The notes beneath the pieces were generated by a model. It saw nothing but the letters and a program-made list of their open reading frames with translations. It was not told where the DNA came from and made no database searches. A stretch of DNA of 45,949 nt, the filler included, from Jimgerdemannia flammicorona (Eukaryota), in the NCBI GenBank assembly GCA_003990765.1. It is 2 parts of 2 records of this genome, joined end to end, with 100 filler letters (N's around TTAATTAATTAA, not from the genome) between each part and the next. Parts side by side here need not be neighbours in the genome. Positions count along the whole stretch, not along the records: positions 1 to 22,928 come from RBNJ01001184.1; 1 more part is not named here. One strand, given 5' to 3'. Position numbers and translations under genes: made by a program. Shown here in pieces: positions 1,201 to 23,613 of the stretch (position 1 is the first letter of the stretch; each line of letters starts with the position of its first letter).

Positions 1201-1433
1201 CTATCAAGTTATACTCCTTCAGGAGATTACTTATATAGAATATCTAAATAGTATAATGCTTACTATTAAAGATAAGAATTAACCTCTTGACTATATTTAT
1301 ATTTAGTATAAGAACTGTAATCATTATACTCATTCTGAGAGTATCTGTATCTGCTATAGCTAGTATACTTATACTGACTACTTAATTCAATATCTTTCTC
1401 CTGTATAATTCACATTACACAAAACTTCAAGCA

Positions 1434-3500
1434 ATGGTTTTCAACACAACTAGAAGAAAAGGTACTATTATTATAGCATCAAGCAAGAGTTCTGACAGGT
1501 GTACTGGGTTAGGGAGATCTGGGGCTTTCGGCTGGCAGAATGTGGGGAGGGGTTATGGCCTGGGGATAGGGGCCTTTGGAGGGTCAAAGAGTGGTAAGGG
1601 CTCTGGAGGAGGTCCAGTATTGGGTGGTAATGGGGGGAGGACTGGCCCCTCAAGCTTTGCAGACAAGGTGAAGGAAAGTGGATGGCCAGTTGGAGATAGG
1701 GCTGGTGCTACTGTGGGGAAGGACAAGGTGAGCCTTGGGAGGGGGGGAGGTCCTCAGGCTGGAGGTAGGAGCATAGAGTCTGGAGGTGTGGTGGCTGGGG
1801 GTGAGACTGCTGATGGAGGTATGATGGGGAATCAGAAAGAAAAAAGAGATGTGATGGCTGATGGTGGAGTGGGGCTGGAGCTACCAATTTGGAAGAGGGA
1901 CCTGGCTGATAGTGTGATGGGGCTGGTGGTGACACCATTACTCAAGAAGTCAGTTTCGGAGTTCATGGCTACCTTGTGCTTCTGGGGCTTAGTGGTGATG
2001 GCAAGGATGGTCCTGGAGCTTATCTTGCAGCAGGTGGCTGGGGCAGCCTCAGTGAAGTTTCTGAAGGGGCTGAAGGGGGTAGAGGTGGGCTTTGAGAAGG
2101 TAGGCTCACTGGATGAGGCAATGAAGACTGAAGTAGTGGTTGGTGAAGTGGTGATTCCTATGGTGTACTGCCTTAGGTGGGACCCCAGGATGGTACAGTT
2201 GCTAGTCAAAGGAGTACCTATGGTGATGAAGGTTGAGACTAGGAGGAGGGTTGAGGAGGTGGTGGCAGAGTATGGTGACATAGTGGATATCAGATTCTGG
2301 GTGTGGGAGGGGACAGCAATCAGGACAGGTGATGTGGATGTCAGGATTAGGCTGGCAGGGAAGGAGGCCACTAAAAAGACAAATGACTGGCCTTCAGTAC
2401 TGATGTGGGGGACTGTTGTCTGTAGGGTATCAAGGGTGAAGAGAAGTGAAGAGGAGGAGGAGGACTTGTTGGAAGCACTAGAGGAGTTGAGTAGTGCAGT
2501 GGAATGGAGGGCAAAGGCCTGGAAGCTCTTTAAGGAGATAACACATCTGGAGGTTGTGGAGGGGAAGTGGATCCACATGGACAAGAGGCAGTGGGAGTGG
2601 GCACAGGGGCACAGGAGGCAGAGGGAGCTTTTAGTGAGTATGAATGTGGAGATGAAGAAGAAGGCAGAGGGGGCTGAGGTGACTGGGGGCATCAAAGCTG
2701 GTATCTGGGCTAGTAAAGAAGAGGGAGAGGTGGAGGCAGGCAAGGAAGGAGCTGGGAAGGTACTGAGCAAGGACCCCTATACCAATGGTACTTTTGAGGT
2801 CTGGGAGCAAGAATTGGATGCCACTCCCCCCCCCTCTTATCAGAAGGGGCCTGGCTGTGAAGAGAAGGACAACAGAGGATATACTGATGAAGGGGGCCCA
2901 GTGAGTGTGATTTGGGGTCCTAGATGTGATGGAAGGGGGCCAGGGGTGACAGTTGGTGAGAATGAGCTGGCGGATGTCTCTGAGGAGGAGTGGGATAAGG
3001 CTGCCAGTATAGGTGCTGATACCACAATGTTGGATGCAGGACAGCCAGAGACTCCAGGTGGGAAGGAGGTGGGGAACTTGCTGTAGATGAGCAAGATGAT
3101 GGACAACCTTACAGCTGAGGCTTTGGGAGAAGTGGACCTGCGGACAATGCCTGATGAGCATTGAGTGCAGATGCTGTATAGAGATGGAGTAGTGGAAGCA
3201 CTGTGGGCAGAGATTCTTGCAATCTTCCTGGAGGAGGAGGGATATGAGGTTGATGAGATGAGGAAGGCAGAGCTGATGGTGGTTGCAGATGAGAGAGCAG
3301 CCTACTGTTGGGCTGAGCATCATGGTTTGCAGCTCTGGAGGAAGGCCTGTCTAGAGTATCATAAGGACTTTGAGAAGAGAGAAGATAGAGCAATGGTAGA
3401 ACTTCTGGAAGAGTTGAAGGCATGGAAAGCTGGGGAAAGGGAACTAGCTGCTGAACATGTCTTGGACTTGGTGCAGGAGGAGCAGAATGTGAACTTATAA
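1434..3500 (+). pseudogene. LINE-A ORF1 (RRM-like nucleic-acid-binding protein)
   Basis: 550-aa ORF 1434-3086 continues in the same frame through two stops into ORF 3165-3500. The segment VQLLVKGVP...YGDIVDIRFWVWEGTAIRTGDVDVRIRL...WPSVL resembles L1-clade ORF1 RRM and is homologous to LINE-B ORF1. Confidence 0.8.
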
Positions 3501-3531
3501 AGGATGGAATTGCTATTTAATATTATTTCTT

Positions 3532-6500
3532 ATGAACAGTATAACTAACATTTTCTCATTGAATGTGAATGGATTGAGGGGACCTGGGCAGTATAAGAAC
3601 ATTTTTACTTAGCTCAAGGGATTGGAGGCTGATCTCTTCTTACTATAGGATGTTCAATGTGAGGATGAGGATGATTGGGTGGAGTAGACTAGGGAATGGG
3701 GTAGGGCTACTGCTTGGTTTGGTAAGATGGCAATTCTGGTGAGGAAGGGTAGAGGAGACTTGGAGGGGATCAGAAGCTGGGGTAATCACTTGGTCTGGGG
3801 AGATTGGCAGTGGCCAGGGTGAGAGTCAGTGAGAGTTGGCTCCTGCTACTGCCCTGCAGTTAGGGGTAAGAGAATTGCATGGATTGAGGAGCTACTGGAG
3901 GAGGGTATTCTCTTGGAGGAAGGGGTCGATGTTCTCAGTGAGGATTTAAATATAGTTCGGGATCAGCATCTGGACAGAACTGATGGAGGGAGGAGTGCAG
4001 GGGGGAGAAGTGGAGGTCTGGATGCATGGGAGGAGGTGGAGAAGTTGAGTACCTTTGGGGATATGGGCAGAACATATTGGGACAATACCAGGGTCTACAC
4101 ATATTGAATAAATGGCTTAGATATAAGAATTGATTGGATTCTGATGGCAGAGTGTTGGGGTTCTGATGTTTGGAAGATATTGAAGGTGGTGTGGTGTCCA
4201 TAGTCTGATTACTGGGGACTGTTGGGGCAGGGGCAGTTTGGGGGGAGTGGAGATGGACCCAGACATTGGTGCCTTAACTCCTCTCTGCTGGCTGAGAAGG
4301 GGTTGTGGGACTCATAGGTAGAGGACATTCAGGCAAAGGTTCTTGTCTGAAGGCATGAGGGTTTGTCTGTGGATGTCCATTGGATAAGATTGAAAGAGGC
4401 AACAAGGGTCTATTGGGGGAGAGTGGGTAGAGATGCTGGGAGGCAGAGGAGGGAGCACATAAGGTGTGCTTCCAGCAGATTGAGGAGACTGCAAATAGAT
4501 TGGGCAGATTTGCTTACTGCTGATGGTGTGGAGGATTGGAGGATAGAGAGGGCTAAATTGGAGATAGTGAAACTATGACAGGTATTGAGAGAAGAGGAGA
4601 AGACTCATATGTGGGGAATGGCTGCTAGGCTACAGTGGCAGGGGCTTGAGGAGGATGAGTGGCCTACTAGGTACTTATTGAGACTCCTCAAAGCCAGGAG
4701 AGTATGACATCAGTGGAATGAGATCTTGGATGCTAATGGAGACATGGTGCATACCATATAATGAATTTTGGGGGTTTTAAAGGAGAGATGGTAGGGTTTG
4801 TGGAGTGAGGAGGAAGGGGGTGCTGATGGGGCAGCAATTGCTGATACACTAGGGGAGTGGGAGCCACCATGAGTAGCTGGACTGGGTGACTTGATCTTAC
4901 CAGTACAAGGAGAGGAGATTCAGAGTATCCTTGTGGCAACTAAGCTTGGAACAGTACCTGGGGAGGATGGGTTACTATGGGACTTCTGGAAGATGATGAT
5001 AAAGGTTCCTGGTGTTTTGAGTGAGATGACTGCTCTCTGTGACCATGTTCTTCAGAGTGGTGAGTGGGTTGAAGAGCAGGACCTTAGGCTGGTGGCCTTA
5101 TTGTACAAAGATAAGGGAAGGAGAGAAGACTGGAAGAACTGGAGGCTGATCATGCTTCTAGATATAGACAGGAAGATGGTGACTAAGGTAATTATTACAA
5201 GGCTGCAGAAAGTTGCCCAATAGATACTGGGGGAGGAGCAGCGGAGCTTTATTGGGGGCAGACTTATAAGAGATGGAACTGTATGGGTACATGGTATCAT
5301 TGAAGGGGCCTGGGCTTGCAGACTAGATGGAAGGTTGGTCTTTTTGGATCAGGAGAAGGTCTATGATTATGTACAGTGGGTCTGGCTGGGCAAGGTGTTG
5401 GATCAAATAGATGTTCTCCCAAGATTTCAGATATCTATGTTGAATCTACTAGAGAGCAGTCAGGCGGCATTGATGTGTAATGGCCACCAAGGTTTGACAT
5501 TCTCCTTGGGTAGAGGAGTTTCTCAGGGGAACTCTCTGTCCCCTATTCTCTATACCCTTTTGTTGGAGCTGTTGATGGATAGGATTCATAGGAAGGTGGC
5601 AGGGCTCTCTATTTATGGTATAGTGTGGAAGATAGGGACCTTTGTAAATGACATGGTGGTTGGACTTGGGTCTGTGGCAGATGTTGAGGCACTTAAGGAG
5701 ACAGTGGAATGGTATGAGGCTCACTTGAGGGTGAAGCTCAACTGGTATAAGTGTGAGACAATAGTGCTTGGTAATGGGCTAGTGGGTGGGGATATCATTG
5801 GAACAATTGTCCCTACTGGTGTGGCAGTGTAGTATCTGGGCATCTTTCTTTCTGTGTATGGTTCTGTCTTACCACGAGTGTGGTGGGAGAACTGGGTGAC
5901 CATATGGGAGGCAGCCCTTTGAAGTTGGGGAGGCTGCCATATCTCTCTGACAGGACAGGTGACAATTCTGAATGTTTACTAATTCCCCAAGCTGTGGTAT
6001 GTGGCCTATCACCTTGATTTCTCAGCTTGGGTGATGAAGAGGCTGATGAAGATGGCTAGAGATTAGATCTGGGCAGGGAGGAGGTCTCAGATTGGTTGGG
6101 ATACTCTTGCAACACCAGTGGTCAGGGGAGGTCTGGGCCTTGTGGACTTCCCTAAGAGGCTGTACTGCTTGTGAGTCTGGTGGTTGAAGAGAGCTGCTGA
6201 ATTGCAGAGAGGGGGTTGGGTACTACTGCTGAGGAAGGTGTGGGAGATGAGGACCTCCCCTTGAGGGTCCTCTGGAGATCTGCTCTCTTTGATGGGGCTG
6301 AATAGAACTCAGCAGCTGCAGTTTAAGGGTTTTTGGTGGAGGGTGGTAGAGGGAGCACACCATATTGGCCAGCACTGACAAGGCAATGAGAGGGAGGTGG
6401 TTTGGAGGCCTGATATATGGTGATGAGATAGACTACTCCTGGGGGATACTCCACTTGATATATTTAATTTTGGAGATAGAGTAGAGTGTCAGCAGGGTCT

Positions 6501-7230
6501 TGGCCAGGATCTTTGGCCCAGTGGCTGGCAGGCAGCAGAGATCAGTGAGAAGTGGGACTGGGCAGGTATCTGATCTTGGAGTGCTGAGGTACAGAGGTGG
6601 CTTTCTTCCAAGTTCTGGGTGATATGGTGGTGAATGCTGCAGAGAAATGTTATGTTAAACTTTCATACTGGGCATCTGGTGGAGAGTGGTCATTATAATT
6701 GTGAGGAGTATTATAATGTAGAGCAAGCAGAGAGAATTGTACAGATGCCAGAACATTGGCTGGGAGAGTATGAGGTTTTGGAAGACTTTTGGGTAGAAAT
6801 AGGGAATAGATTAGGTGTGAGGCAGAGGCTGGCAGGTGTGGGAGGCTGCTGGGAGGACTTGAGGTCTCAGCTAGTAGGCAGGGTAGGGGATAGCTAGCTC
6901 ACTATAGGGTGGGTATTGGCAGTATAGGTAGAATTGGCAGGATATTGGCTTTTTGTATTTGAAGAGGGGTGATAGATGAGGCTGTGGAAGAAGATTTCCC
7001 AGTAGGAGGAGCTATTGGGAGATCTGTTGACTAGATAGTGGGTGGGTTGGAGTCCTCAAGGTGGGTGGTGTCACAGTTTGATGGCAAGGATCTATACATA
7101 GAGTGGAGGGAGGGTAGAGATTGTATTAGACAAAATGGTCTTTTATCAAGAAGGAATAAGGAGAGGGGGGCCCCCTAGGGGGATCAGATAGGAGGAGGGA
7201 TCACTGTATTTATATGGGATAGATGGGCAT
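3532..7230 (+). pseudogene. LINE-A ORF2 (endonuclease-reverse transcriptase), many stops
   Basis: Starts MNSITNIFSLNVNGLR (APE). RT motifs PGEDG, WRLIMLLDIDRK, DQEKVYD, GVSQGNSLSP and FVNDM (decayed FADD), then GGLGLVDF and a degenerate CCHC near 6700-6770. Confidence 0.93.
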
Positions 7231-9079
7231 AATAAAGGAAGAAAGTCCAAGTGACTATAAAAAAAAAAAAAAAAAAAAAAGAATAGACTTAATCTCAGAT
7301 TAACTGAACAATATAGACATCCTTATTAGAAACTTTAACAAGCTTATACATACACAAGCCTAGTTCCCCACAGAAGCTCCATCAGTCTCCCTCATTGAAC
7401 TACTACTAGGACTAGCAACTATAGAACTAGAAGGATCAAAAATAGCTCCTTCAAGATTATTAAGACTCATTGTATCTCATCTGAGATCAGCAATACTATC
7501 CTCAGGATATCCAAGCATCCCAAGTATCAGTAACAATTCAGAATTAGAATCAGAATCAGAATTAAAACCAGAAGACAGTAATGATGAAATAACTACTCTA
7601 ATACCAACTTTTGCTGAATATTTGAAGGAAGATCCAAGAGATTTTCTTAATAGAATTGAAGAAATTGCAGCTCTGAAGAACCTCTCTACTGAAAGAAAAA
7701 TTGTCATTTACAAGACCCAACTTAGAGACCAGCCAGGGGAATTTTCAACTAAGTAAGAAATGATGTATATTTAGATCTTAGAATAGCCATCTATGTAGTA
7801 GCAAAATATGAAGCCATGATGCACTAGCTTATTGAGAAGTATGCAGGAAATGAAACCCACTATAAGATCTAATAATCTATTATAGGAATGAAGACAAATT
7901 TAGAAAATTACCCAGGATATTCTTTACTAGAATTTAGAAAAGAATACATATAACTGAGTTCAGTGCTACCAACTAAGATATCATAGGACCAATGATCTTT
8001 ATGAATGGGATTTCTCTGAACATTATCCAGTATATCTGTACTCTAGATATCAGAAGACCTAAAGAACAAGTAGATGTAGTCTATGGATTTTTCAATGTTA
8101 AATAAGGAACTACCTGGAGCAATCATGATAAGAAAGATCCTCTTGATCAAAACCCTGTAAGCACTCCTTCAAGAATAAGGAAAATCAGAAGAAAGAAAGC
8201 CAGCTAAGGAGTAGAAAAAAGAGAGAAACAAAATCTAAGATCTCAATTCTAAGTTAGACTGATTTATTGGCCAAATTGAAAACTTATCACATGTAAAAAT
8301 CAGAGCTATTAGTAAGACAACAGAGGGTATACACTATGAGAGAACCATGCTTATCTACCCAGAGATAACTGGAGCTACCAACTATAAGAAAAAAAGAAGA
8401 TATCTTATCTGAGATAGAGCTCAAGTTCAATGCTTCTACTATAGACAGTTCAGATACTATACTACAGAATATAATAATAGAAAAAGTGAACAAAGAGACT
8501 CTGAACTATCAAATTGAAAGAATAAACTCAGTATAAAAAGACTGAGGTCTATTCTGTCAAAGACTTTGAAGAAGAAAGTAATAGTGAATATTGTAGTAAC
8601 CTAGACCTATATAAGGTCATCACTAGAAAGATAGTCTACTTAGTAGAGAAAAAAAAAAGATCTGTAAGAAGACTATTTAGAAATACTAGTAGAAGAATTA
8701 TCTAGAAAGAAGATAAAGAGTGTGAAGAAGAATAAGTGGAAATATCTCTCTAGTCTCTCTTATCTTTTATTTCTAAAACTAATAAACTATCTTCAGAGAA
8801 TAAAAAAAATGAAGCAAAAAGAATGAGAGCCTATTGCCCTGAAGTCCAAGAAGAAGTATACCCTGAAGACTATATCTAGAGATATCTATAATGAAGCCTT
8901 ACAAAAGATTCAAGAAGCTAAGATAGAAGTTTCTCTCTTATAGTTTCTACAACTGATACTCACTAGAGTTCAAAATAAATTATTGAGAACCACCAGATCT
9001 AGTACTGGCTGAGTCTCAATTCTACAACAAGAATTAGCCCCAACTACTATTTAGATTATAAAAAGACATATCTGCATAT

Positions 9080-9420
9080 ATCTGTATAGAGATATCAGAG
9101 AACAAAAGACAAAAATCCTCATTGATATAGGATCAGCTGTCTGTATTATTGCTAAATGATTCTTAGATACCCTTTAATGGCTGATTGATAGACTATCTAA
9201 CCTCAGTATTATAGTAGCAGATAGAGCCTGAACTCAACTCCTTAGAGAAGTATAAAACATCACTCTCTCTCTAAGATATATTCAGTTTTCTATCTCAAAA
9301 GCTATTGTCACTAAAGTTATCACCTATGATATGATTCTTGATATCAACTAGATAAAGGAATTGAATGCTATCATTGATATTGGCCAACAGGTGCTCAAAT
9401 TCGACTATAGAGAAAAGAAG
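9080..9420 (+). pseudogene. Gypsy-1 aspartic protease
   Basis: KILIDIGSAVCIIAK (DTG decayed to DIG) and DMILDIN* (decayed ILGxxW). Confidence 0.85.
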
Positions 9421-10644
9421 TACAGGATCAAGATGACTAACTAACCAGTAGTAAGAAATCTACTATAGAAGAAAAAAAAGAATTAGAAGATGGAAATGAT
9501 CCCAGACTCAACCTAGTGGATAATAGGCCAGAAGATAATATATAGACTAAAGATACTATCTCCATCACAATCAGAACCATTGCAGAACAAATCAAAGAAT
9601 ACCCTATCTATCTCAAAAGATATAAGTACTCTGAACACTCTTTCAAGATTATTGAAATAAGGAATTTATTTGATATAGCTTATCTTGAGTATAGAAAATA
9701 AAAGAAGAAACACCAACATACTTCAAAAATATCTATAGCTGAAGCTGTAGAAGTACAAGCAATTTGGGGTTAAGAAATATCTAAAGAAGAAGCCTCTGAA
9801 TAAGAAGTTCCTGAACAGAAAGAGCTCTTCAAACTTATTCTCTGTGATGATTCTTACTGGATACTACCAGAAGATGATGATCTCTGAAATATTGAAGAAG
9901 AACTAAGTATAGTCATATTGTCCAAAGATAAGAAATATACCAGAAGAGAGCCTTTTGACTAAGAAGATATCAGTACCAAATGATTTTCCACTCTTTCTGA
10001 AACTACTGCTATCAGTGTCACCTATTGGACTAATAAGAAAGACAGAGACCCTGTAGATCTAAAGCCTCAATTATAATTACTCCTTTCAAGAAACCACTAC
10101 AATGTTAAAAAAGTAAGCCAATAGATAAGGCCACTTCACTTGAACAGAGATATAGCCCTTAGCTACTCTTTTTCCAACTTATAATGAGAATGGATACTGA
10201 TTTTCAAGATATTAAGTAATTAATAACTGAGAACTATATTATTGAGCAATGGAATATTACAACTATAGAAAACACCCAGACTGCTGAGATTGCTAACATC
10301 AGAAGATTTATCTCAGCTAAGATATTATTATTCATATATTAATAAGAGGAGATAATAGAACTCAGATCTAAAGAAATCAGGCTAAGAAATTAAAAAAGAA
10401 GACTCTTAAGATTTATAATCTAGGAGAAGATATCCTAGCTCTCATCAGATATATAACCTATCAAGGATAAATAGAGGATGTCATCAACTTCATGGAAGCC
10501 CTAGACTCTACAGGAAAAAGAGGAATCAATTATCTCTGAGATCTCTCTATTGAAGCCAGATGACTGTATCTTAACCTTAAAGCTTAAAGACTTACTCCCA
10601 ATAGAGCCTTAGTCCAAGAATAATCTGAACTCAGTAAAGATGTT

Positions 10645-11052
10645 ATCCAGTATATCTTACTACATCTCAAGGCCAAACCCTCAACTAAAGCTCATCAGAA
10701 AGATATGAGGTATGACCACTATAGTCTAGAGGATAAACCTATTAAATCTGGAATAATAATGATATTTAGAATAAGACTAACCATACAGCTATCTAAAGGA
10801 ATTTATATCTAGCTAACCCCAAGGTCTGGACTTGCCAGACAAGAAATAACTATAGAAGGAGAAACTATAGACTCAGAATATACAGATAAAATCAAGGTTA
10901 TCTTAAATAATAGTAATACAGAATAGTACTGAATCTATAGTGGATAGAAGATTATATAAGAAATCATCATAGAGGTTAAGACTCCCCAGCTACAAGAGGT
11001 CTCCAAACTGACTAAAGAAATAAGATAAACTGAAAGATTTAGAAGCTCAGAT
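10645..11052 (+). pseudogene. dut: Retroelement-encoded trimeric dUTPase domain
   Basis: Decayed dUTPase motifs in order: DMRYDHYS (DAGYDLYS), LTPRSGLA, EGETIDSEYTDKIKVIL (GGxIDxxYxGEIKVIL) and R*TERFRSS (RGxxGFGSS). Confidence 0.9.
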
Positions 11053-11599
11053 AAGAAGGAAGTATACCTTCTTCAAGTTAACCACTTCAAGAAGAATGCT
11101 CTTCAGTAAGTATATTGCCAATTAATCAAGCTATACAAGAACCTCATCTTGGAACCAGGAGAGCAAACTATCTTTAAAATCTTTGTTCCACCTGACTCAA
11201 GAAACCTCTTCTTTGAACTCAATAAAGATATCAAAAATCTAAATATTAAAAGATAATGAGATAAATTCTGTATACTCTTAAACAATTAACAAAAGCTGAA
11301 AAAGTATTATTCTGCTGAAAGAAATCATTATAGGATATCTAGTGCTCTATCTTAACTAAACTCACAGAGAAGTTTATGAGTTAAACTCATTGGAAAATGG
11401 CAAAAAGTTCCAGAAGAAAGGAAAGGCCTCTCTGTGACTCAAGAGAAAGTAAAGTCTTCTATCAATATTGGAGAATAATTGACACCTCAACAATAGCAAT
11501 AACTAGTAGAACTTCTTTATAAATATTAAGATATCTTTACTACTAACTATGATAATCTACCATACAATCCATAGAAAATACAATGTCTATCTAACAAAA

Positions 11600-12830
11600 G
11601 TCTTATAGAATACCTCACTATCTAAAGACATTTGAGAAGGAACATATTTAGAAACTCTTAGACAATGGAGTTATCTAATCCTCCACCAGTCCCTAAGCCA
11701 GCCCTATACTTATTGTATCTAAGAAAAAAGGATGAAGACTCTATATAGACTATAGGAAACTCAATTTAGTCACTAAAAAAGATACTTACTCTTTGCCCAG
11801 AATTGATGATCTTTTAGATTAATTACAAGATATCAGATACTTCAGCAGTATTGTAGGATTTTATAAGATCCTCATAGATCTCAAGAACATTCAGAAAATA
11901 GCCTTTCTTGCTCTAAAAAACTTTTTAAATATCTCTGAATACTCTTTGAACAATATAATATACCCCCAACCTTCCAGAGAATAATGAACTCAGTCTATGG
12001 CTCACTGATCCACTATTGTCTAATTATATATATAGATGACTCTAATATCTATTTAGTAAATTTTGAAGAATATCAATACTATCTAGAGGAATTCTTCAAG
12101 CTTATCTGCAAAAATCATCTGAGACTCAATATCAAGAAATGTTACTTTGAAAAACAGAAGCTTGAATTCCTTAGATTTATAGTTTCAAAAGAAGGAACCC
12201 ATATAGATCTAAAGAAAACCAAGAAGATTAACAATTGGCCAGTATTTAAGATTTCAAAGAAAATACTATTATTCTTAATATTAGTATTCTACTACAGAAG
12301 GTTTATCAAAGACTTTGCCCAAATTGCTACTTCAATTTGAGTCTTGCTTAAGAAAGAAGTACTATATAAATAGATGGAACTACAAGAACTAGCCTTCAAA
12401 GAACTCAAATACTATATAACTATAGTACTAATTCTTATGCAGCCCAATCTACAAAAGCCATTTATCTTATATACAGATACTTTTAAAGATGGCCTTAGAG
12501 CAGTTTTAGTCCAAAAAGGACCTGACCAGTAGTATCATATGATAGCTTATATAAGCTAAGCCACTAACTAGTAGTAAACTAATTATAGTAGTATCAAACT
12601 AGAATATCCTGTAGTTATATGAGCAGTTATCCTATTTAAATACTATCTTATTGAAAAAAGATTCACTCTAATAACTGACTATACTACTCTCAAATAGCTA
12701 TTCAATTATAAGGAATCTACCAGAATTCTTGCCTACTAGGTCCTTATTCTATAAGATTACAAAATCACTATCATCTATAAAGCAGGAAAAGCTCACAATA
12801 ATGTTGATATACTTTCCTACTAAATTTAAT
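11600..12830 (+). pseudogene. Gypsy-1 reverse transcriptase and RNase H
   Basis: DNGVI*SSTSP*ASPIL, RLYIDYRKLN, DTYSLPRIDDLL, IYIDD (ORF 11984-12340), YYRRFIKDFAQIA, FILYTD, ITDY..LK*L, YKAGKAHNNVD. Confidence 0.93.
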
Positions 12831-12879
12831 GAATCAGAAGAAGGGTGTACCAAGTAACTATACCCTAAAGAAAGCTCCT

Positions 12880-13890
12880 ATATATGACTATTAAAGTACA
12901 AGAAGATCTCATCCAAAAAGAATACCAGAAAGCCCACTAAGGACAGAAAAATATAGAAGAAAAGCTGTGAATAACATATCAATAGTGGCTCAATCTCAGA
13001 ACACAAGTCTGGGATATACTCAAAAAAGATGACATCTGCCAAAAGTACTAAGAGAAGAAAAACTACCAAATACTATTATAATTAATTGTACCATTAGACA
13101 ACATCTTTCAAAGATAGAGAGTAGATGTTATTAGACTCTTATTAGTTATACCAAGAAGGAATAAATATATTCTAGTATTTGTAGAATATCTAACCAAATG
13201 GCCCAAAGCTTTTCCAATGGAAATTGCTGATGTCTTGATTATTATTAGTCTCCTCTATGAGCTCACATTTAGATATAGACCTTCAGAAGAACATATCTTG
13301 GACCAAGGTACAGAATTCATCAATAACATAATTATAAGTTATATCTGAATTCACAAGATCTACCTTAAATAGACTATATTATACTACTTCTAAATCAATA
13401 GTATGATGGAATAAATGAATTAAACCATTAAGAAAGAACTTTCTTGAATTAATTCTATCAACTGGAACCTCTGCTTACCTGAGATCCTATGGAAAATTCA
13501 GAACACTCCTGTTGTCTCTATCAAACAAAAGCTATTTAAAATGATGTTTACTAAGAACACCAGAACTACTGATCATGAGGATCTCAGAGATCTCCTCAAA
13601 AAGACAGAACAATTATATAATCAGACTCAAGCTCAGATAATTAAGGCCCAAGAAAGATAGAAGAAGTATTATGACCAGAAACAAAAGAATCAAAAGATCA
13701 AAATTGGAGATCAAATACTAGTTTAGAGAAGTATTATTGAAACAAACTTTGCTATCAAACTAGAATCCAAATGAGAAGAACCTTATCTTATATATAATAT
13801 CAGAGAAACCAGTATCTATTTTAAAAATATAAATAGATGAACCCTGAAGACACTAGTATATATTAATTACCTCAAGCTATATCTCTCTTA
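12880..13890 (+). pseudogene. Gypsy-1 integrase
   Basis: Degenerate HHCC region (..ICQKY), VDVIRL, ILVFVEYLTKWPKAF, DQGTEF and a GPY/F-like K*EEPY. Confidence 0.9.
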
Positions 13891-14436
13891 TTATGAATCA
13901 GAGAATTGATCAGTACCTCTGAACCCTTATCCTTAGTTTCTTCCAAGCTCTGCCTGTCTCTCTGTCTCAGTTCTGCTTACTTGAAGAAATCCTAATATAA
14001 TTGATCTAAAAACATCAAAAGAACCTTACTATTACTCAGAGACTATTATAGATCTACTATCTGCAGGTCTTCTATAATATCAGTCTATTGTTACAGGAGT
14101 AATCTTATATAAAGAAATCAGTTAATATAACTATCTGAGAGATCTAAACTACAAAAAGGCTCTATATCTTATATAGATGAAATCTAAGAGTCTTGTTGCA
14201 AGCTCACTTCCATCTGACTGATATCTACCAGATAAATGAGATGACCTTTCCAGACATCCTTTAATAAGTAGATATTCTATTTCCCAAAGAGCAGAAAGAA
14301 GACCCAGAACTAGAGTAGAGTGATCTAGATATAAAAGGAGATAATAGTACTGATATAGATGTAGAAGATATCTATAAATATTAAAATAATAACTAAAGGA
14401 CAGTCTGAGGACAGACCATCTTTTAGTAGGAGCTGA

Positions 14437-15746
14437 TATAATAAATTAGCAGAAAAACATATATATTAAGTCACTATCTCAATTAGTTACTATATATCAT
14501 ATCAAGTATACATATCAGACAACCAGAGTTACCCTACTATATCAACTTATATAAATAACTCAAATAGCTAAAGAACAAAATATTACAGACCCTAAAGATC
14601 ATCCTGAAATTCTAAAGATTACTTTAAGATCTTGAAGGTCACTTTGAGACTATAAAGGTCACTTATTCCCATATATAGTAAATCTATAATTAGCTATATA
14701 GTAACTAGATAGCAACTAATCTATATATATGAAATACCCCAGAGATAAGAGTGAATAAACCTCAGTCTGAAAATCAAAAGTAAAAGCCAATTATCTAGTA
14801 TACTTAGAAGAAGAAACCTACTATCAAGCTACTACCAAGAAGTTGTAAGCTATTTTCCATTTCAGTCCACTTTCTAATACAAAGAATAAGTCTGAATTCA
14901 AGAGTATTTATCATCCAAGTTTGAGTAAAGAACTTGTCACTATTTGAGTAATCTACTACTTAAAAAAGAGCTGTCATTTTTAAGAGAAGTTCACTATCTT
15001 GTTATAAAGTCAGTTTATTTAATATAACTTCACAGTAAAGTTAGTCTCAATGTAACTTCATATAAATGAAGCCAGTCTCTGACATAACTTTATAAGAAGA
15101 GAATTCACATCATTCAAAAACCATACTAATTTAGGAAGAATTCATATCATCCACCATTTTCTAAAAAGTCTACCATAGAAATCTTACTACAAAGTTAGTC
15201 TATCTTGATGCAACTTTACAATAGAGCCAGTTCTTCTATATAACTCCATATAAATAAAGCCAGTCTTTGACATAACTTTACTTAAAAATCTGTCCTCTGA
15301 GTTATTCAAGTTATCTGTCAAATCAAGTTATTTGAGTTATTTAAGAAATCTGCTAATTTAGAAGAATCTATACCAAAACCAAGTTATCTACCAACCTGCC
15401 ACCTAATATAGAATACTGCCAACCTACTATATTATACCAGATTACCCAGATTGTTATAATACTTTTAGAGATTGTTATACTATATAGAAATTATTCATTA
15501 CTTAAGAAGAAAATTTACTCACAGAGACTATTATATAAATTACCACTATACTTAAGAACTGTCCTAATAAGAAAATTACCAGAATTGATCACTATATCTA
15601 AACTTAACTATTATACTGCTAAATACCAATAACGATACCAGAAAGCATAGAACATTTATTACTTTTTAACAAAGTAACTGAGGGCTTAAGCCAAACTACA
15701 TCAACTTCCAATCTTGTAATTTCCTCTATTAAGTCAGTATATTATA
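14437..15746 (+). repeat. 3' LTR of Gypsy-1 (~1.3 kb) with internal tandem repeats
   Basis: Follows GTCTGAGGACAGAC plus a PPT-like stretch at 14401-14436. Termini TATAAT...ATTATA fit decayed TGTAAC...GTTACA. The 3' end (TTTATTACTTTTTAACAAAGTAACT...ATCTTGTAATTT) matches the reverse complement of 43836-43940. Confidence 0.78.
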
Positions 15747-15949
15747 CTATATATGCTTAAAATATAAGAAACTAGAGTAAGAATAAAGGATAATAGGTCT
15801 CAATAGTAGAAGATCTCAAATATAGAAGAAAAAGAAGAAAAAAATAGAATAGTGCAATATAATACTTAAAGAGAGAGATATATTGTATCATTTTTCTACT
15901 TCCTTTTTGTTATAAAATATTCTGTGATTATCTATTATTTATTACTGAT

Positions 15950-17065
15950 ATAGTTTACCATAAGTCTCATTTTTTTAATATATTATTAAAATTTAAATCT
16001 CAAAAGGGCTTTGGTGAGCAAATCTACAATCATATACTTTATAGAGATATATTCAAAGTATATAGTCTCATTCTTTATATACTCTCTTATAATAATACTA
16101 TATATCAATATACTTTATTTTGAAGTAATATATAGAGTTTTTTTCTATAGCAATTATAGACCTGATGGATGAGCATAGAGTTTTATTTCTAATCAAAGTT
16201 TAGCTTCTTTAGTAATTAATATAGCCAAATAGCTTTTTTGTTACAGTGGAAAAGACTTGATATTTGGCCTAAATAGAAGAAGTTACTAGAGAACTACTTG
16301 TATATTTGCTATAAAATAACTCCTTTGTCATTTAACTGAAAGAAGTATCTAGTTATAGATTACTAATATCTAAGTCTCTAGTCCAATTAGTATTATATGT
16401 ACTGAATAGTTGTATACTGTTTTTGTTATTATTATTATTATTGCTCTTACTCAATCTACTGAGGATAAGTATATAGTATATTATTCCTTTAATATATCTG
16501 AAAATTCTCTTAATAATACTTTAATATAAATTATTATAGTATAATAAATACTATACTATCCTATTTATAGTAAATAAAATATTTGACCTTATTTCTAGCA
16601 TAAGATATATACATAAGAGAACTGACTGTTTATTGATAGGAAATATTGATATAGTTTTTCTCTAATATAGTATCAGACTTCCTTAAATTTATCAAAGTTT
16701 TCATAAGAGTGTTTACTGGCTTATATTCACTCATTTTGAATTATTCAAAGATGATTTAGATATAAGTTAACTATAAGAAATATATAGCATATATACTCCT
16801 ATCATCTATAATAGATATTCTCAAAAGAAAGAATATATTACCTATATTAGTTATCTTGAATTCCTTATACAGAGCTTCTTTAACTCTATTAAGTTTATTT
16901 TTTATTATAATAATAATAATATCATCTATCTAAATATCTATGAATACTACTCTATTGGTATAGTATTGAATATATATATAATTATCTACTTTATAGTATA
17001 TATAGCTATTATTATGAAGATATTTATCAATTTTTCTATTTTATAAATAGACTGCTTAGTTAATA
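15950..17065 (-). mobile_element. Ty1/Copia RT-RNase H fragment, heavily decayed
   Basis: Minus-strand motifs KQS, VFIDI*IDDIII (WVDD), NTNWTRD (DANWAGD), KNSIYYFKIKYIDI (NPVYHxRTKHIDI) and MIVDLLTKAL. Cut off where LINE-B begins. Confidence 0.88.
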
Positions 17066-17251
17066 CTATATAATCCTAGGGGACTCCTTTTGCTCAAACC
17101 ACATAGAGTGAGCTAAGCCACATGGGCATCTTTTTATGAAAAGCAATACGTTTTCAAGTTTTCACTTTGCCTACACTGGTATATTAGGTGTGGCAGGAGT
17201 CTGGCAATAATCCACAATAAGTTTCATTGAAATCTATCAAGTTTTCAAGAT

Positions 17252-19113
17252 ATGATGACCCAGGGTTCATTAAGCTTGGAGTGCCTGGAGAGGAGGAGGC
17301 CTGGCCTGAGTCTCCCCAAGAGTTTTATATGTAGCTGCTTGGAGCTGGAAGACAGATTGGAGGTCAAGAACTGACAGCAGAATTGGATGGTTGGTGCATA
17401 GTGGTGGGAGGTAAGTGGGTAGTCTTTAGGCCTACAGTTGGAGGGCAGCAGGGGCATAGTGTTGACAGAGATGGACATCAGGTGACTGGTCAGCTGACTG
17501 GCCAGGGACTCAGCAGGGGTCAGAGGTCCAGGAGTATAATGGTAGAGATAGGCTTTCCTAGAGCTGGGCCAGTGGCTGGGGGTGGGACTGCTGGTAGTGT
17601 AGTAGCTCCTGGTGAGGTGGTGGCTAGCATGTCTGGAAGCAAGAACAAGGCAATCCTGGCCACAAAGACTGGTGAGCTGGTGGTATGACTATTCTTTCTT
17701 AAGTCAGTGTTGACATAGGCAGTCTCTACCAATTTCTTGGACCTTGGTCTGTTGGCCAAGAAAGTTCTATGACTAGTGGATGAGGAGGTAGCAGGGGCAG
17801 AGTCACTGAGGTATATTCCCTCAGCAGAGGTAGTGGAGGTCAGATTTGTTAAGGAGGAGGCTATGGTGAAGGCCTTAGAGAAGGAGTTGATGGTCAAGAA
17901 TGTTAAGATAGAGATGGCAAGGTGCCTGAGATGGGACCTATGTGCAGTGAGGTTGGTAGTAGAAGGATTGTCAATACTGAGCAGGCAGGAGACCAAGATG
18001 GTGATCACCAAGGCTCTGGAAGGCTATAGTGAGATGGTGGATTTCAGATTTATATTTTGGGAGAGCATGAAGTTGAGGAATGGCAATTGTGAGATAATGG
18101 TGTGGTTGGAGGAGAAGGAGGCAATGGGTTTGGGGCAAGACTGGCCAGAGGTCATTTATATTGGGGAGCAGGAATGTCAGGTTTGGAGGAGGAAAGGCTC
18201 TGAGCAAGAAGAGGAGGAGCTACTGATAGCCCTTGAGGAGTGGGATGAGGTGAAGGCTCTACAGAAGAGGAAATGGAAGGAATTTGCCAAAGATTGGATC
18301 TGGATTAAGACAGATAGAAAGAGGAAGTATTGGCATAAGGTAAACTGAGAGTGGCTACAGGCAGTGCTGCAAGCATCTGTGGAGGAGGAGGTTGAAAGGA
18401 TGGCATCTGATAGGAATCAAATAGAAGGAGTGGAGGCAGCTGAGGTGTCCTTCTTGCAGCTGGGGGGAGTGGGAGAATCTGTACATGTGCCAATAATAGG
18501 GAAGTGGGCAGATGGTGAGGAAGAGCAAGGAGCAGGCTTCAAAGAGAATGTTGAGATAGTTCTGAAAACTCAGATGAAAGACATGGTAATGACTAGGTCA
18601 GTGAATATACACTGGGAATGTCCTGAGGCAGGGGAGGTGGTGAGGTTGAATAAGGTCTCTAAAGAGGATGAGCTAGTGGATGTTGCTTCCAATATATCTG
18701 CAGACAGAAAATTGCTTCAGGAGCTGTACAGGACTCCTAGGCCCATGACTCCAGGGCTACTGGTGATGGTAGCAAATGGCTGGTTTCAGGCAGTCCTGGA
18801 GGAACTAGCAGAGAATGATATTAAGAAAGTGAATGTATTTTAGGGTTCTCCAGAGGCATGGGAAGGATTTCTTAAGGTGGTATTGCAAGGACCAAAGTTG
18901 ATAACTACTATGGTAGCAGCCCTTCTAGAGGATGAAGAGTATGAGGTGGATGATGCCAGAATGGTAGATATCCATAAGGTGGTATCAGAGTGAGTAGACT
19001 CCTTCTGTGGCAGTGTCAATGGTAAGAGAATTTGGCAATCAGTCTGTGAGGAGCATCAAGACATCATTAAGGACAGAGCTGAGAAGGTAGTGGCAGTAGT
19101 AGCTGATATCTAA
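17252..19113 (+). pseudogene. LINE-B ORF1
   Basis: In-frame fragments 17383-17688, 17776-18348 and 18364-18843. VRLVVEGLS...YSEMVDFRFIFWESMKLRNGNCEIMVWL...WPEVI aligns with LINE-A ORF1. The start is uncertain. Confidence 0.75.
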
Positions 19114-19126
19114 ACTCCAATTTTTC

Positions 19127-22100
19127 ATGATGAAGTACAATCTACAAATTCTGTCAATCAATGTCAATGGTTTATGAGATAGAGTGAAGTGGTGGTATCT
19201 CTTTCGATAGTTGAAAGTCCAGAGGTATGATGTGGTGTTTCTTTAGGATATTCAGGCCTATTGTAAGGAGGACTATAAGTTGTGGAGTAAGGAATGGTTT
19301 GGAGATACTGGCTGGAGTAAGCAAGTTGGTATTCTAGTTGGGGTTGGAAAGGGGGAGTTGGTTGATGTGGAAAGATTTGGTAATTGTCTGGTGTAGAGAA
19401 GGTTGAAGGGAGGAAAAGGAGATGGACTCTTGGTGGGCTCTGTGTATCTGCCAGTAGTTGGCAGAGAGTGAAAGCAATGAGTAAAGGAGTGGCTGGCTTG
19501 AGAGGATTGGGCAGCTCTAGGGTTAGACATTCTGGAGGGTGATTTTAATATGGTAAGGGACTGTATACTGGATCAGTCTGATAGTGGGGCTGGTGTAGCA
19601 GTTTCTCCAGAGCTGTCTCAGTAGCTTTAGGTGGAAAAGGGCATGAGATTGGTGGATGGTATATGATTGAGGGTGGGAGATGAGTCAGGGCCCTTTACCA
19701 GGTGGCATTTAATAGACAATAGGATGGTTGGAATATGGATTAATTGGGTACTGGTAGCTGAACATTGGGGTAATGTTTTAGACACAGTGGGGGTATGATG
19801 GTGCCCATGGTCAGACTATTAGGGAGTCAAGGTGTGTGAAAGATTCCAGGCTATTAATGGAGGAGGTGGGCACTGGTGTCTTAATGTAGCCCTACTCTGA
19901 TGCCTGGTGGAATGGAAGCAGTTTATGTACTTGGCCAGATAGGAAGTAGAGTGATGGGTGGCTAGTGGTCTGTCTATTGCTGATTGATGGAGTAAGTTTA
20001 AACACCTTGCAGGTGCATATTGGTGAGACACTGGGGAGGTGGCAGGAAAGGAGCAAAAGGACAAGGAAAGGAGAGTCAAAAGAGGTTTGTGGTGGTGGCT
20101 GAAGTTATTGAAGGATGGTTCACTGGCAGAAGAGAAGAAGTGTCAGCTTGCTAAAGAGGTAGTCAACTTACAGTCAGCTTTGAGGGAGGCTGAGAATAGA
20201 GTCATAGATGGGCTCCTGGCATGCCTGAGGGCTAGGCGACTGGAAGAGGGTGAGCAACTGATGAAATACTTATCTGGTGTCTTAAAGGCAAGAAAAGTTC
20301 AATACAGCTAGTCTTCAGTATTATGAGAAGATGGTATTGAGGTTACCAGTGTGGCAGATATATTGGAGGAGGTTTCTGGACAATGGTGGACCCTCTGAAG
20401 TGATGATGATGAGGGAGGGGGTGCTGGGGTAGGGGATGTTGCTGAGGTACCTCTTGTATATAACTGGCCAGTGGTGCCACTGCCAGAGATAGGGGCTTCA
20501 GTATTAGGCAGAGTGTCTTTGGAGGTATTGGAGGTTCTGCAGAAGGCACCTGGTGGTTCATCGCCAGGTAAGGATGGACTCTCTTGGGAGTTTTGGAAGG
20601 ATTTTCAGATGGAATTTGGAGCTTGGCTTGTTGAAATGATTAATTATATGCTGGAAGAAAGACAGTGGATTGGAAATGGAAGCTTAGGACTGGTGTCTTT
20701 GCTGTATAAGGAGAAAGGTGACAGGAGGGAGTGGCATAACTGGCAGCTGATCATGCTGTTGAATATAGATAGGAAGCTAGTCTCCAAAATCCTGGCAGAA
20801 AGATTGCAGCAGTGAATTGAAAGACTGGTAGGAGAGGAGCAGAGGGGCTTTGTGAAGGGTCAGCAGATCAGGGACAGTACTGCCTGGGTGCAAAATATCT
20901 TAGAAGGCTGTAGGAGTCAGCAGGTCAATGGGAGGATAGTCTTCTTGGATCAGGAGAAGACATATGACAGGGTGCAGTGGCATTATCTAGAGGTAATACT
21001 TCAGAAAGTAGAGTTTGAGCTTGAAGAAGTTGGAAAGCTGATGGGACTGGTACGTGGCTATTGAGAGGCAGTGCTGATGAATGGCTAGAGTAGTTCAGAG
21101 TTTGCCTTAAGAAGAGGGGTTCCATAAGGAGACCCTCTTTCTCTGCTCCTTTATATTCTCTTGCTGGAACTGATGTTGGCCTGGCTAAGAGGATGGCTGA
21201 ATGGCTTGTGAATAGGTGAGGTAGTTTAGAAGCTAGGGGCCTTTGTAGATGACATGGTGATGAGGCTTAGCAGCATGGCAGATGTGGACATTTTAAGAGA
21301 AGGAATAGAACAGTATGAGGGATTGGCAGGTGCAAAGTTGAATTGAGGAAAGTGTAAAACCTTAGAGCTTGGTACAGGCTTAGGGGTAGCAGGGTTTGGA
21401 CAAGTGGTGCCTATAGGGGAGGCAGTACAGTACTTAGGGATATGGTTTTTAGTGTTCAGGACAGTTTTGCCAAGGGAGTGGTATTGTTCAATAGTACAGA
21501 AATAGGAAGGTGTACTGATAGGCTGGACTGGTCAAAACTTCTCCCTGGTGGGAAGAGTGGTGGTCCTGAATGTGTACTGGCTGCTGAAGTTGTGGTATCT
21601 GGGTTTTCACTTAGATTTCCCTAGATGAGTGGTGTGGTGGCTCAAAAAGGCTATTGAAGGATGGCTCTGGAGGGGTAGATGGCCACTAATTGGATGGGAA
21701 ACATTGGTGCTACTGATTACTGATGGAGGTTTGGGGTTGGTGGACTTTTGGTGAAGGTTGAAGGCACTTAGGGGCTGGTGGGGTTGCTGATTAGTAGAGT
21801 TAGGAGAAGAAAGTTGGGGCAGATTGATGATGGATAATTGGGAGATCAGATTCTGCCTCTGGAGTGTGAAGAGGAAGGATTTGTGAGGACTACTTCAAGT
21901 TTGATCAGTGGGGAGGATGAGGTTCAAAGGGTTCTGGTGGGGTATTGTTGAGGCCTAGCTTACAATGGAACTAACAGGACCAGAGGTGGAGGCAATAGGG
22001 GAGGGGGCTAACTCTGAGCAGTGATGGTGGCAACTTAGACTACTCAGGGTAAGAGGGAAGGAGCTGAAGGACTATTCTCTGGTAGAGGCTATGGAATGGG

Positions 22101-22800: not shown

Positions 22801-22928
22801 ATAGGTGGCTAGTGGGATAAATTTGTGGTTTAATTCATATAGACTAGTGGAATAAAGGAGTCCAAGTAACTATAAAAAAAAAAAAAATTGGTGCTTGGTG
22901 GGATGGTGAGGTCTTGGCTGCTGTAGAG

Positions 22929-23028
22929 NNNNNNNNNNNNNNNNNNNNNNNNNNNNNNNNNNNNNNNNNNNNTTAATTAATTAANNNNNNNNNNNNNNNN
23001 NNNNNNNNNNNNNNNNNNNNNNNNNNNN
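22929..23028. other. Artificial scaffold/concatenation spacer
   Basis: 44 N + TTAATTAATTAA (stops in all six frames) + 44 N = exactly 100 bp. Confidence 0.97.

Positions 23029-23574: not shown

Positions 23575-23613
<39 letters not shown>

What the first reader, a model, noticed from the sequence alone, without database searches (positions are those of the whole stretch)
7281..17065. RIP-like, repeat-restricted C>T/G>A hypermutation that goes beyond CpG
Seen: only a handful of CpG in ~10 kb of Gypsy/Copia DNA. Invariant motifs also show non-CpG transitions: Trp TGG>TAA (SPW, 11694), TGG>TAG (LKWL, 12695), TGG>TGA (KWEGPY, 13772), LTR termini TGT..ACA>TAT..ATA, PBS TGG>TAG, and both MITE ends CAGT>TAGT. 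The unique DNA at 23029-40082 keeps normal CpG. Known: RIP (RID-dependent, mostly CpA) is established in Pezizomycotina, and CpG/TCG-biased variants are reported in some Basidiomycota. Inference: the host has a repeat-directed methylation/deamination defence with broad context (CpG strongest, CpA and others too). If the host is an early-diverging fungus, as the element style suggests, this would be a poorly described genome-defence system.
Basis: partly seen in the sequence, partly recalled or inferred. Interest (0 to 1): 0.75.

Follow-up and report, generated by a model that had tools for sequence, protein, structure and literature searches.

The report
Repeat-only cytosine decay, CpG first
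Every transposon in this stretch has lost almost all of its CpG sites and the older ones have also lost many other cytosines, while the neighbouring non-repeat DNA is untouched; this fits a kind of genome defence already known in fungi, in a host that could not be identified.

Summary
Repeat DNA (1-22928 and 40083-45949) holds 19 CpG against about 915 expected. The non-repeat DNA at 23029-40082 holds 824 against 834. The finding's span holds 2 against about 217.

The loss goes beyond CpG in the Gypsy and Copia DNA. Polarised with 120 Pol relatives, Gypsy 1 shows 0.24 C>T/G>A changes per G/C site and 0.014-0.018 reverse transitions per A/T site. The context order is CpG > CpA (0.48) > CpC (0.27) > CpT (0.10). 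An independent comparison of two Gypsy copies confirms that CpT is spared (p = 1.8e-15).

It does not look like classical RIP. CpG dominates rather than CpA, Ts/Tv is only 2.8, and the mutations are not clustered by strand. The two neighbouring LINEs lost their CpG but keep 47-48% GC, and one keeps an open 566-codon ORF.

My best reading (0.5) is repeat-targeted cytosine methylation, saturating at CpG and weaker at CpA/CpC, with slow 5mC deamination. The closest known cases are CpG-driven AT-enrichment of transposons in Austropuccinia and the CpG plus CpA signatures in Tuber.

The host could not be identified, so "early-diverging fungus" is untested. The window is two contigs joined by a linker.

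The parts
1..1000 (.). Unclassified CpG-free DNA, C-rich (GC 0.43)
   Evidence: 0 CpG against 43.5 expected. No homology to the Gypsy LTR regions.
1001..7281 (+). LINE A. ORF1 is 1386-3086 and is open. ORF2 is about 3358-6990 with 34 in-frame stops, RVT_1 at 5131-5841. The poly-A tail ends at 7281. GC is 0.48, G 0.35, C 0.14.
   Evidence: RVT_1 E=4.1e-16. 9 CpG against 297 expected. Stop counts.
7281..14500 (+). Gypsy 1, 5'-truncated and degenerate. dUTPase at 10684-11049, RT at 11963-12175, RNase H at 12383-12760, integrase to about 13880. GC is 0.31.
   Evidence: Pfam hits. 1 CpG against 178 expected. Polarised spectrum.
15527..15752 (+). Gypsy LTR remnant
   Evidence: 69.6% identical to 44059-43835, next to Gypsy 2.
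16702..17055 (-). Copia RT fragment, cut off at 17065. It lies in the most AT-rich part (GC 0.23-0.26).
   Evidence: RVT_2 E=2.7e-7, 30.9 bits against a 31.6 cut-off, profile positions 126-242 of 244.
17066..22890 (+). LINE B. RVT_1 at 20735-21445. It shares its 3' tail motif with LINE A. GC is 0.47, G 0.34, C 0.13. Both ORFs are broken.
   Evidence: RVT_1 E=8.3e-20. 8 CpG against 254 expected. Stops.
22929..23028 (.). Contig-join spacer, N(44)-TTAATTAATTAA-N(44)
   Evidence: Read directly.
23029..40082 (.). Non-repeat DNA with normal CpG (o/e 0.99, GC 0.44). It holds at least one spliced transcript around 31687-32858.
   Evidence: 824 CpG against 834 expected. 81 of its 86 ORFs of 70 aa or more were scanned and none reaches a Pfam cut-off. 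GT..AG joints at 32036>32561 and 32622>32734 in contigs of run X1.
40083..44059 (-). Gypsy 2, the same family as Gypsy 1 (70% identity). It is truncated inside its dUTPase exactly at the CpG boundary. GC is 0.29.
   Evidence: blastn 8588-10913 against 42470-40090 and 7546-8443 against 43382-42468. dUTPase at 40083-40322, profile positions 6-85 of 129. 0 CpG against 82 expected.
44277..44344 (+). LINE 3' tail fragment
   Evidence: 82% identical to 7208-7280.
44345..45949 (.). Unclassified, very AT-rich, CpG-free DNA (GC about 0.2)
   Evidence: 0 CpG.

Best explanation
The host methylates cytosines in repeats, and only there. CpG methylation covers each repeat right to its edge and is nearly saturating. 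Deamination of 5-methylcytosine has therefore erased CpG from every transposon class, including a LINE lineage that was still coding. A weaker non-CpG component, with CpA > CpC > CpT, acts mainly inside the repeat blocks. Over a long time it has taken the older Gypsy and Copia copies from about 44% to 25-31% GC and filled them with TAA, TAG and TGA stops.

Shown: the restriction to repeats, the direction of change, the context order, and the graded damage among elements. Inferred: that methylation is the cause, and that deamination is slow and cumulative rather than an enzymatic pre-meiotic burst.
For: 1. Restriction to repeats. CpG is 19 observed against about 915 expected in repeats and 824 against 834 next door, with normal GpC. 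The switch falls within 8 bases of the truncated end of Gypsy 2.

2. Direction. At 205-262 Pol columns conserved among relatives, C>T plus G>A is 0.24 per G/C site. T>C plus A>G is 0.014-0.018 per A/T site.

3. Most events are not CpG-derived. Only 1-9 of 61-104 events have a neighbour compatible with a CpG origin. Complete CpG loss alone can lower GC by only about 5 points, because CpG makes up 4.8% of positions in the non-repeat DNA.

4. Context. In contexts fixed within the codon, the mutated fractions are CpG 5/8, CpA 10/21, CpC 12/44 and CpT 4.3/42.8. In the independent two-copy comparison, the share of C sites that differ is CpA 154/229, CpC 57/83 and CpT 130/381. CpA against CpT gives p = 1.8e-15.

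5. Cumulative character. Ts/Tv is 2.78. There is no strand clustering (runs z = -0.97 and +2.48). The LINEs show the same ranking at a lower level (CpA 6/29, CpC 5/56, CpT 1/50) while being fully CpG-free.

6. Edge effect. In the 600 bases of Gypsy 2 nearest the non-repeat DNA, Gypsy 2 keeps G/C at 78 sites and Gypsy 1 at 48. Elsewhere the counts are 229 and 347 (p = 7e-6). CpG is nevertheless absent right up to the edge.

7. Printed analogues (passages read in each). CpG depletion and AT-enrichment of transposons by 5mC deamination without classic RIP indices (PMC8063080). Methylation roughly 3:1 CpG to non-CpG and coextensive with repeats in Tuber (PMC4165359).
Against: No methylation data exist and no methyltransferase gene could be looked for, so the cause is inferred from sequence alone.

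The order CpC > CpT is not a context order I know for any methyltransferase (recalled, not tested).

The codon-parsimony method undercounts synonymous changes. It is also ambiguous at Leu and Arg, which biases the CpT class downward. The two-copy test shows CpT spared as well, but there CpA and CpC are about equal.

The native GC of the Gypsy family is not known independently.

The non-repeat DNA may hold its 44% GC through selection or biased gene conversion rather than through mutation balance.

All of this rests on one 46 kb window of two joined contigs. A mis-assembly at 40083 cannot be excluded, because no contig of run X1 spans it.
Confidence: 0.5

Rival explanations
1. A true RIP-like process. 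A homology-triggered, enzyme-driven C>T mutation of duplicated DNA, of the RID/Masc1 type or an analogue, with an unusual target order of CpG > CpA > CpC > CpT.
For: The mutation is coextensive with repeats and stops at the end of homology. There is a strong CpA over CpT preference. The composite RIP index is positive in the Copia/LTR block (+0.32), in Gypsy 2 (+0.17) and in 43951-45949 (+0.10). The Gypsy family has at least 2 copies here. LINE A and LINE B gave no blastn match to each other apart from the short 3' tail, so they would not count as duplicates of one another. CpG plus CpA signatures were linked to RID/Masc1-bearing species in PMC4352252 (section 12 read).
Against: Ts/Tv is only 2.78, with 253 transversions in 3249 aligned sites. 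There is no strand-wise clustering. The RIP index is negative for Gypsy 1 (-0.12) and for the LINEs (-0.57 and -0.69). LINE A ORF1 is CpG-free yet open for 566 codons, which points to slow loss under selection rather than a burst. Damage is graded among elements.
Confidence: 0.2
2. Plain ageing. Methylation removes CpG quickly, and the rest is ordinary AT-biased neutral decay of old LTR elements. The LINEs are simply younger.
For: There are many transversions and indels and no strand clustering. The order of damage, LINE < Gypsy 1 < Gypsy 2/Copia, looks like an age series.
Against: GC>AT runs about 13-17 times AT>GC per site. That implies an equilibrium GC below 10%, yet adjacent non-repeat DNA with no recognisable coding sequence sits at 44% GC with CpA 1.10, TpG 1.17 and TpA 0.76 o/e. 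There is a two- to almost five-fold dependence on the 3' neighbour. Damage is lower at the repeat's edge.
Confidence: 0.2
3. Native or lineage-evolved composition. The transposon families were already CpG-free and AT-rich (or, for the LINEs, G-rich) when active, so little of the pattern is post-insertion mutation by the host.
For: LINE A ORF1 is intact with 3 CpG against about 92 expected. The LINE sense strand is G+T-rich, with lineage-wide A>G, T>G and C>T shifts relative to relatives.
Against: The Gypsy changes hit invariant Pol residues and create stops. In 262 conserved columns only 154 keep the consensus residue, and Trp columns read TAG, TAA or TGA. The two Gypsy copies differ by 703 transitions, so the decay is post-divergence.
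Confidence: 0.1

Closest known systems
5mC-deamination-driven CpG depletion and AT-enrichment of transposons in the rust Austropuccinia psidii (Tobias et al. 2021, PMC8063080; passages read)
   Same: The genome is rich in Gypsy and Copia. Transposons are about 10 GC points below the rest. CpG is depleted specifically in transposons, more so with age. Classic RIP indices are not clearly shifted. Gene-free distances are long.
   Different: Here CpG loss is essentially complete (o/e 0.00-0.03). A non-CpG component with a CpA > CpC > CpT order is shown directly. That paper attributes the AT-richness to CpG instability. The host here is unknown.
Combined CpG and CpA signatures at C>T sites in Tuber melanosporum transposons (Amselem et al. 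2015, PMC4352252; abstract and sections 7 and 12 read)
   Same: There are two dinucleotide signatures in one genome, with CpG more common than CpA. Ts/Tv is above 2.
   Different: Tuber transposons keep abundant methylated CpG and show no RIP-index shift (PMC4165359, passages read). Here CpG is all but gone.
Classical RIP of Neurospora and other Pezizomycotina
   Same: C:G>T:A changes confined to repeated DNA, stop codons from CAA, CAG and TGG, AT-rich relics.
   Different: In RIP the main target is CpA, transitions vastly outnumber transversions, and mutations arise in pre-meiotic bursts (recalled, and as summarised in PMC4165359 and PMC4352252). Here CpG dominates, Ts/Tv is 2.8 and there is no strand clustering.
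TpCpG hypermutation in Pucciniomycotina (Horns et al. 2012, PMC3318451; abstract read)
   Same: A CpG-centred, repeat-associated C>T bias outside the Pezizomycotina.
   Different: The trinucleotide preference cannot be tested here because no CpG is left. For non-CpG sites, a 5' T is the least mutable neighbour (0.42).
DIM2-dependent mutation of methylated repeats in Zymoseptoria tritici (PMC8016269, search listing only; described in passages of PMC8063080 and PMC13297926)
   Same: Methyltransferase-linked C>T changes in repeats at CpA, outside a classical RIP burst.
   Different: In that case CpA, not CpG, is the affected context. No methyltransferase could be examined here.

Membership tests
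Classical RIP (RID-dependent) | C:G>T:A transitions confined to duplicated DNA | tested here: met
   Direction shown. Confinement and a sharp boundary shown. The Gypsy family has 2 copies in the window.
Classical RIP (RID-dependent) | CpA is the dominant target | tested here: not met
   CpG loss is complete (19 against about 915). CpA is second, at 10/21.
Classical RIP (RID-dependent) | Transitions vastly outnumber transversions | tested here: not met
   Ts 703, Tv 253, ratio 2.78.
Classical RIP (RID-dependent) | RIP indices: TpA/ApT high, (CpA+TpG)/(ApC+GpT) low, composite index above 0 | tested here: inconclusive
   The composite index is positive in 3 of 7 repeat compartments and negative in Gypsy 1 and both LINEs. 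CpG>TpG/CpA products mask the loss of substrate.
Classical RIP (RID-dependent) | RID/Masc1 gene present; pre-meiotic timing | not testable with these tools
   No genome is held.
Methylation-driven CpG decay of transposons | CpG depleted in transposons but not in the rest, with GpC normal | tested here: met
Methylation-driven CpG decay of transposons | Excess of the products TpG and CpA | tested here: met
   In the LINEs, CpA is 1.35-1.43 and TpG 1.16-1.18 o/e. In the LTR elements the excess is erased by further decay.
Methylation-driven CpG decay of transposons | 5mC present on repeats; DNMT1/DNMT5-class genes present | not testable with these tools
   There is no methylome and no genome.
APOBEC-like editing of retroelement cDNA | Plus-strand G>A excess with a 5' TC or CC target and strand-wise clusters | tested here: not met
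   C/T differences number 365 and G/A differences 338. A 5' T is the least mutable neighbour (0.42). There is no clustering.

The most novel reading that the evidence does not exclude
A two-tier, repeat-restricted cytosine mutagenesis in a host outside the Dikarya, for instance a large-genome early-diverging fungus. The first tier erases CpG completely, coextensive with each repeat. The second tier hits non-CpG cytosines with an order CpA > CpC > CpT and fades within about 600 bases of a repeat's edge. If the second tier is enzyme-driven, it would be a RIP analogue with a new target order in a lineage where RIP has not been established.
Probability: 0.15. Interest if true: 0.7.

Novelty: new member of a known kind. 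Interest (0 to 1): 0.4.

Why it matters
The window shows in one place that repeat-targeted cytosine decay can be total at CpG yet continue at other cytosines with a clear context order. That is what actually makes these transposons AT-rich, because CpG loss alone can explain only about 5 GC points here.

It also shows that a LINE can stay coding while CpG-free. In other words, transposon lineages can adapt to such a defence.

If the host turns out to lie outside the Dikarya, this would extend RIP-like genome defence. If it is a rust or a truffle relative, it is a clean example of something already described.

Tried and rejected
**Host identification failed.**
- No genome is held.
- Earlier scan notes were empty.
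- LINE ORF1 gave only 2 unnamed relatives at 50-52% identity.
- Gypsy Pol relatives are 24-39% identical and come from plants, insects, fish and Rhizophagus.
- LINE ORF2 gave 7 hits at 21-33% identity.
- Both Atlas calls pointed only to generic animal retroelement clusters.
- The plasmid DNA search found nothing.
- ARAGORN found no tRNA. Rfam found one tRNA-like match at 34134-34204.

**Sequencing runs.** Only one coded run (X1) was listed, with 0.08 of the words, and no RNA holder was listed. Its contigs cover 8 of 30 bins. None spans the boundary at 40083.

**Scan that was too large.** A six-frame Pfam scan of the non-repeat DNA was too large to print. I replaced it with 81 of the 86 plain ORFs. 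The 5 left out were one ORF containing N and four made of GT repeats. Nothing reached a curated cut-off.

**Other rejected lines.**
- An alternative genetic code as the cause of the LINE stops: ORF1 of the same element has none.
- APOBEC-type editing.
- Estimating the ancestral CpG content of the Gypsy from the 16 TG-versus-CA double differences proved inconclusive, because secondary hits erase that signal.


Full report
**What the window is.** It is eukaryotic DNA, and no genome is held for it. The run 22929-23028 reads N(44)-TTAATTAATTAA-N(44). That 12-mer is its own reverse complement and places a stop in all six frames. I read it, from general knowledge, as a spacer used to join contigs. 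The window is therefore two contigs. The left one (1-22928) is all repeats. The right one (23029-45949) has 17 kb of non-repeat DNA followed by repeats.

**Anatomy.**
- LINE A (1001-7281, + strand) has RVT_1 at E=4.1e-16 and a poly-A tail ending at 7281.
- Gypsy 1 (7281 to about 14500, + strand) has dUTPase (E=1.3e-12), RNase H (E=3.4e-19) and a weak RVT_1. All six frames of the finding's span carry hundreds of stops.
- An LTR remnant at 15527-15752 matches 44059-43835.
- A Copia RT fragment lies on the - strand at 16702-17055 and is cut at 17065 (30.9 bits, just under the curated 31.6).
- LINE B (17066-22890, + strand) has RVT_1 at E=8.3e-20.
- On the right contig, Gypsy 2 (- strand, 40083-44059) is 70% identical to 7546-10913. 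It is truncated inside its dUTPase exactly at 40083.
- A LINE tail fragment lies at 44277-44344.
- The non-repeat DNA has no recognisable gene. 81 of its 86 ORFs of 70 aa or more were scanned and none reaches a Pfam cut-off. Contigs of one coded run do show GT..AG joints at 32036>32561 and 32622>32734.

Observed against expected CpG, by compartment:

| Compartment | CpG observed | CpG expected |
|---|---|---|
| 1-1000 | 0 | 43.5 |
| LINE A | 9 | 297 |
| Gypsy 1 | 1 | 178 |
| 14501-17065 | 1 | 40 |
| LINE B | 8 | 254 |
| Gypsy 2 | 0 | 82 |
| 43951-45949 | 0 | 21 |
| Non-repeat DNA | 824 | 834 |

GpC is normal everywhere. The finding's span holds 2 CpG, at 9402 and 15633. On the right contig CpG runs on to 40081 and then stops, within 8 bases of the first base of Gypsy 2 homology.

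**Does it go beyond CpG? Yes, in the LTR elements.**

First, arithmetic. CpG makes up 4.8% of positions in the non-repeat DNA, so its complete loss lowers GC by at most about 5 points. The LTR elements are at 21-31% GC against 44%.

Second, direction. I laid 120 Pol relatives on Gypsy 1 by tblastn. At columns where the relatives agree, I inferred the change from the nearest codon of the consensus residue.
- At a 0.6 threshold (262 columns, 154 residues kept) there are 45 G>A and 35.3 C>T against 5 T>C and 3 A>G. That is 0.243 per G/C site against 0.018 per A/T site.
- At a 0.7 threshold (205 columns) the rates are 0.239 against 0.014.
- Only 1-9 of the 61-104 GC>AT events have a neighbour compatible with a CpG origin.

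Third, context. For contexts fixed inside the codon, the mutated fractions are CpG 5/8, CpA 10/21, CpC 12/44 and CpT 4.3/42.8.

Fourth, an independent test that needs no protein relatives. In the Gypsy 1 / Gypsy 2 alignment (3249 sites, 70.6% identity, Ts 703, Tv 253), I used only sites whose two neighbours are identical in both copies. The share of C sites that differ is CpA 154/229 (0.67), CpC 57/83 (0.69) and CpT 130/381 (0.34). CpA against CpT gives p = 1.8e-15.

The two tests agree that CpT is spared. They disagree on whether CpC equals CpA. The codon method undercounts synonymous changes and is ambiguous at Leu and Arg, so its CpT figure is a low estimate.

**What speaks against classical RIP.**
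- CpG, not CpA, is the saturated target.
- Ts/Tv is 2.78, with 253 transversions.
- C>T and G>A events are not clustered by strand (runs z = -0.97 and +2.48).
- The composite RIP index is positive only for the Copia/LTR block (+0.32), Gypsy 2 (+0.17) and 43951-45949 (+0.10). It is negative for Gypsy 1 (-0.12) and for the LINEs (-0.69 and -0.57).
- The LINEs flanking Gypsy 1 are CpG-free but keep 47-48% GC, and their CpA and TpG are in excess (1.35-1.43 and 1.16-1.18 o/e), as expected for plain CpG>TpG/CpA products.
- Polarised with 157 LINE relatives (the 7 and the 150), the LINEs show the same ranking at a lower level: CpA 6/29, CpC 5/56, CpT 1/50. These counts are small.

The damage therefore looks graded, in the order LINE < Gypsy 1 < Gypsy 2/Copia. 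It does not look all-or-none.

**What speaks against plain ageing.**
- GC>AT exceeds AT>GC by about 13-17 fold per site. That would drive GC below 10%.
- Yet the adjoining 17 kb, in which no coding sequence was recognised, sits at 44% GC with CpG 0.99, CpA 1.10, TpG 1.17 and TpA 0.76 o/e.
- The 3'-neighbour dependence is two- to almost five-fold.
- In the last roughly 600 bases of Gypsy 2 next to the non-repeat DNA, Gypsy 2 keeps G/C at 78 sites against 48 for Gypsy 1. Elsewhere the counts are 229 and 347 (p = 7e-6). CpG is absent to the very edge.

That pattern fits a CpG component covering the whole repeat and a non-CpG component that weakens at the border.

**Best reading.** The host methylates cytosines in repeats only. 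CpG methylation is saturating, and there is a weaker CpA/CpC component. Cumulative 5mC deamination follows. I put this at 0.5. Methylation itself is inferred and was not observed. The rivals are:
- an enzyme-driven, homology-triggered RIP analogue with an unusual target order (0.2);
- plain ageing plus CpG decay (0.2);
- lineage-evolved composition (0.1).

**Literature.**
- CpG depletion and AT-enrichment of Gypsy and Copia by 5mC deamination, without classic RIP indices, is described for Austropuccinia psidii (PMC8063080, passages read).
- CpG plus CpA signatures are described for Tuber melanosporum, with a link between CpA and RID/Masc1 (PMC4352252, abstract and sections 7 and 12 read).
- Tuber transposons, however, keep methylated CpG and show no RIP-index shift (PMC4165359, passages read).
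- TpCpG hypermutation is described in Pucciniomycotina (PMC3318451, abstract read).
- CpG-biased hypermutation that also affects genes is described in Rhizoctonia (PMC4014442, passages read).
- A preprint on Entomophthorales reports positive RIP indices in 24% of the Zoophthora genome and an enrichment of dUTPase and retroviral protease domains. The word CpG does not occur in its main text (10.1101/2023.09.13.557621, passages read).
- A 2026 review states that 5mC is near-undetectable in early-diverging fungi (PMC13297926, passages read).

The kind of process is therefore known. What this window adds is the completeness of CpG loss together with a directly measured non-CpG context order.

**Host.** It was not identified (see Tried and rejected).

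**Verdict.** I file it as a new member of a known kind, with interest 0.4.

Noticed in passing
window 1386-3086 (+): LINE A ORF1 is open for 566 codons. The other two + frames have 39 and 43 stops, and shuffles give about 32 (minimum 13 in 500). It holds only 3 CpG against about 92 expected, while ORF2 of the same element has 34 in-frame stops. This LINE lineage seems to have been coding while already CpG-free, or ORF1 is under separate selection. Two unnamed relatives are 50-52% identical.
   Followed up: partly
window 1001-7280 and 17066-22928: Both LINEs have a strongly skewed sense strand: G 0.34-0.35 against C 0.13-0.14, GC skew about +0.45. Trp TGG makes up 6.4% of LINE A's ORF2 codons and about 6.5% of LINE B's. 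Relative to 157 relatives, sense-strand C>T (0.16 per C) exceeds G>A (0.06-0.07 per G), and A>G (0.09-0.13) exceeds T>C (0.01-0.04). T>G is also common. The skew is too large to come from C>T alone. It is probably a composition drift of the lineage, or strand-specific mutation or editing during transcription and retrotransposition.
   Followed up: partly
window 40083-40709: The 600 bases of Gypsy 2 nearest the non-repeat DNA are less depleted of non-CpG G/C (GC 0.34-0.41 against 0.24-0.30 further in). CpG is still zero there.
   Followed up: yes
window 22929-23028: N(44)-TTAATTAATTAA-N(44), a six-frame-stop spacer. The window is two contigs placed end to end.
   Followed up: yes
window 31687-32858: Contigs of a coded public run match at about 99% and skip 32037-32560 and 32623-32733 with GT..AG ends. 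A spliced transcript therefore lies in the CpG-normal DNA. None of its ORFs has a Pfam match.
   Followed up: partly
window 34134-34204 (+): A tRNA-like match in Rfam (34 bits, gathering score 29) that ARAGORN does not call.
   Followed up: no
window 23579-23614, 29461-29640, 30669-30734: Long poly-A runs (36 and 66 bases) and a (GT)n/(AT)n microsatellite of about 180 bases inside the CpG-normal DNA. The poly-A runs could be tails of retroposed sequences.
   Followed up: no
window 10684-11049 and 40083-40322: This Gypsy family carries a dUTPase domain upstream of RT.
   Followed up: no
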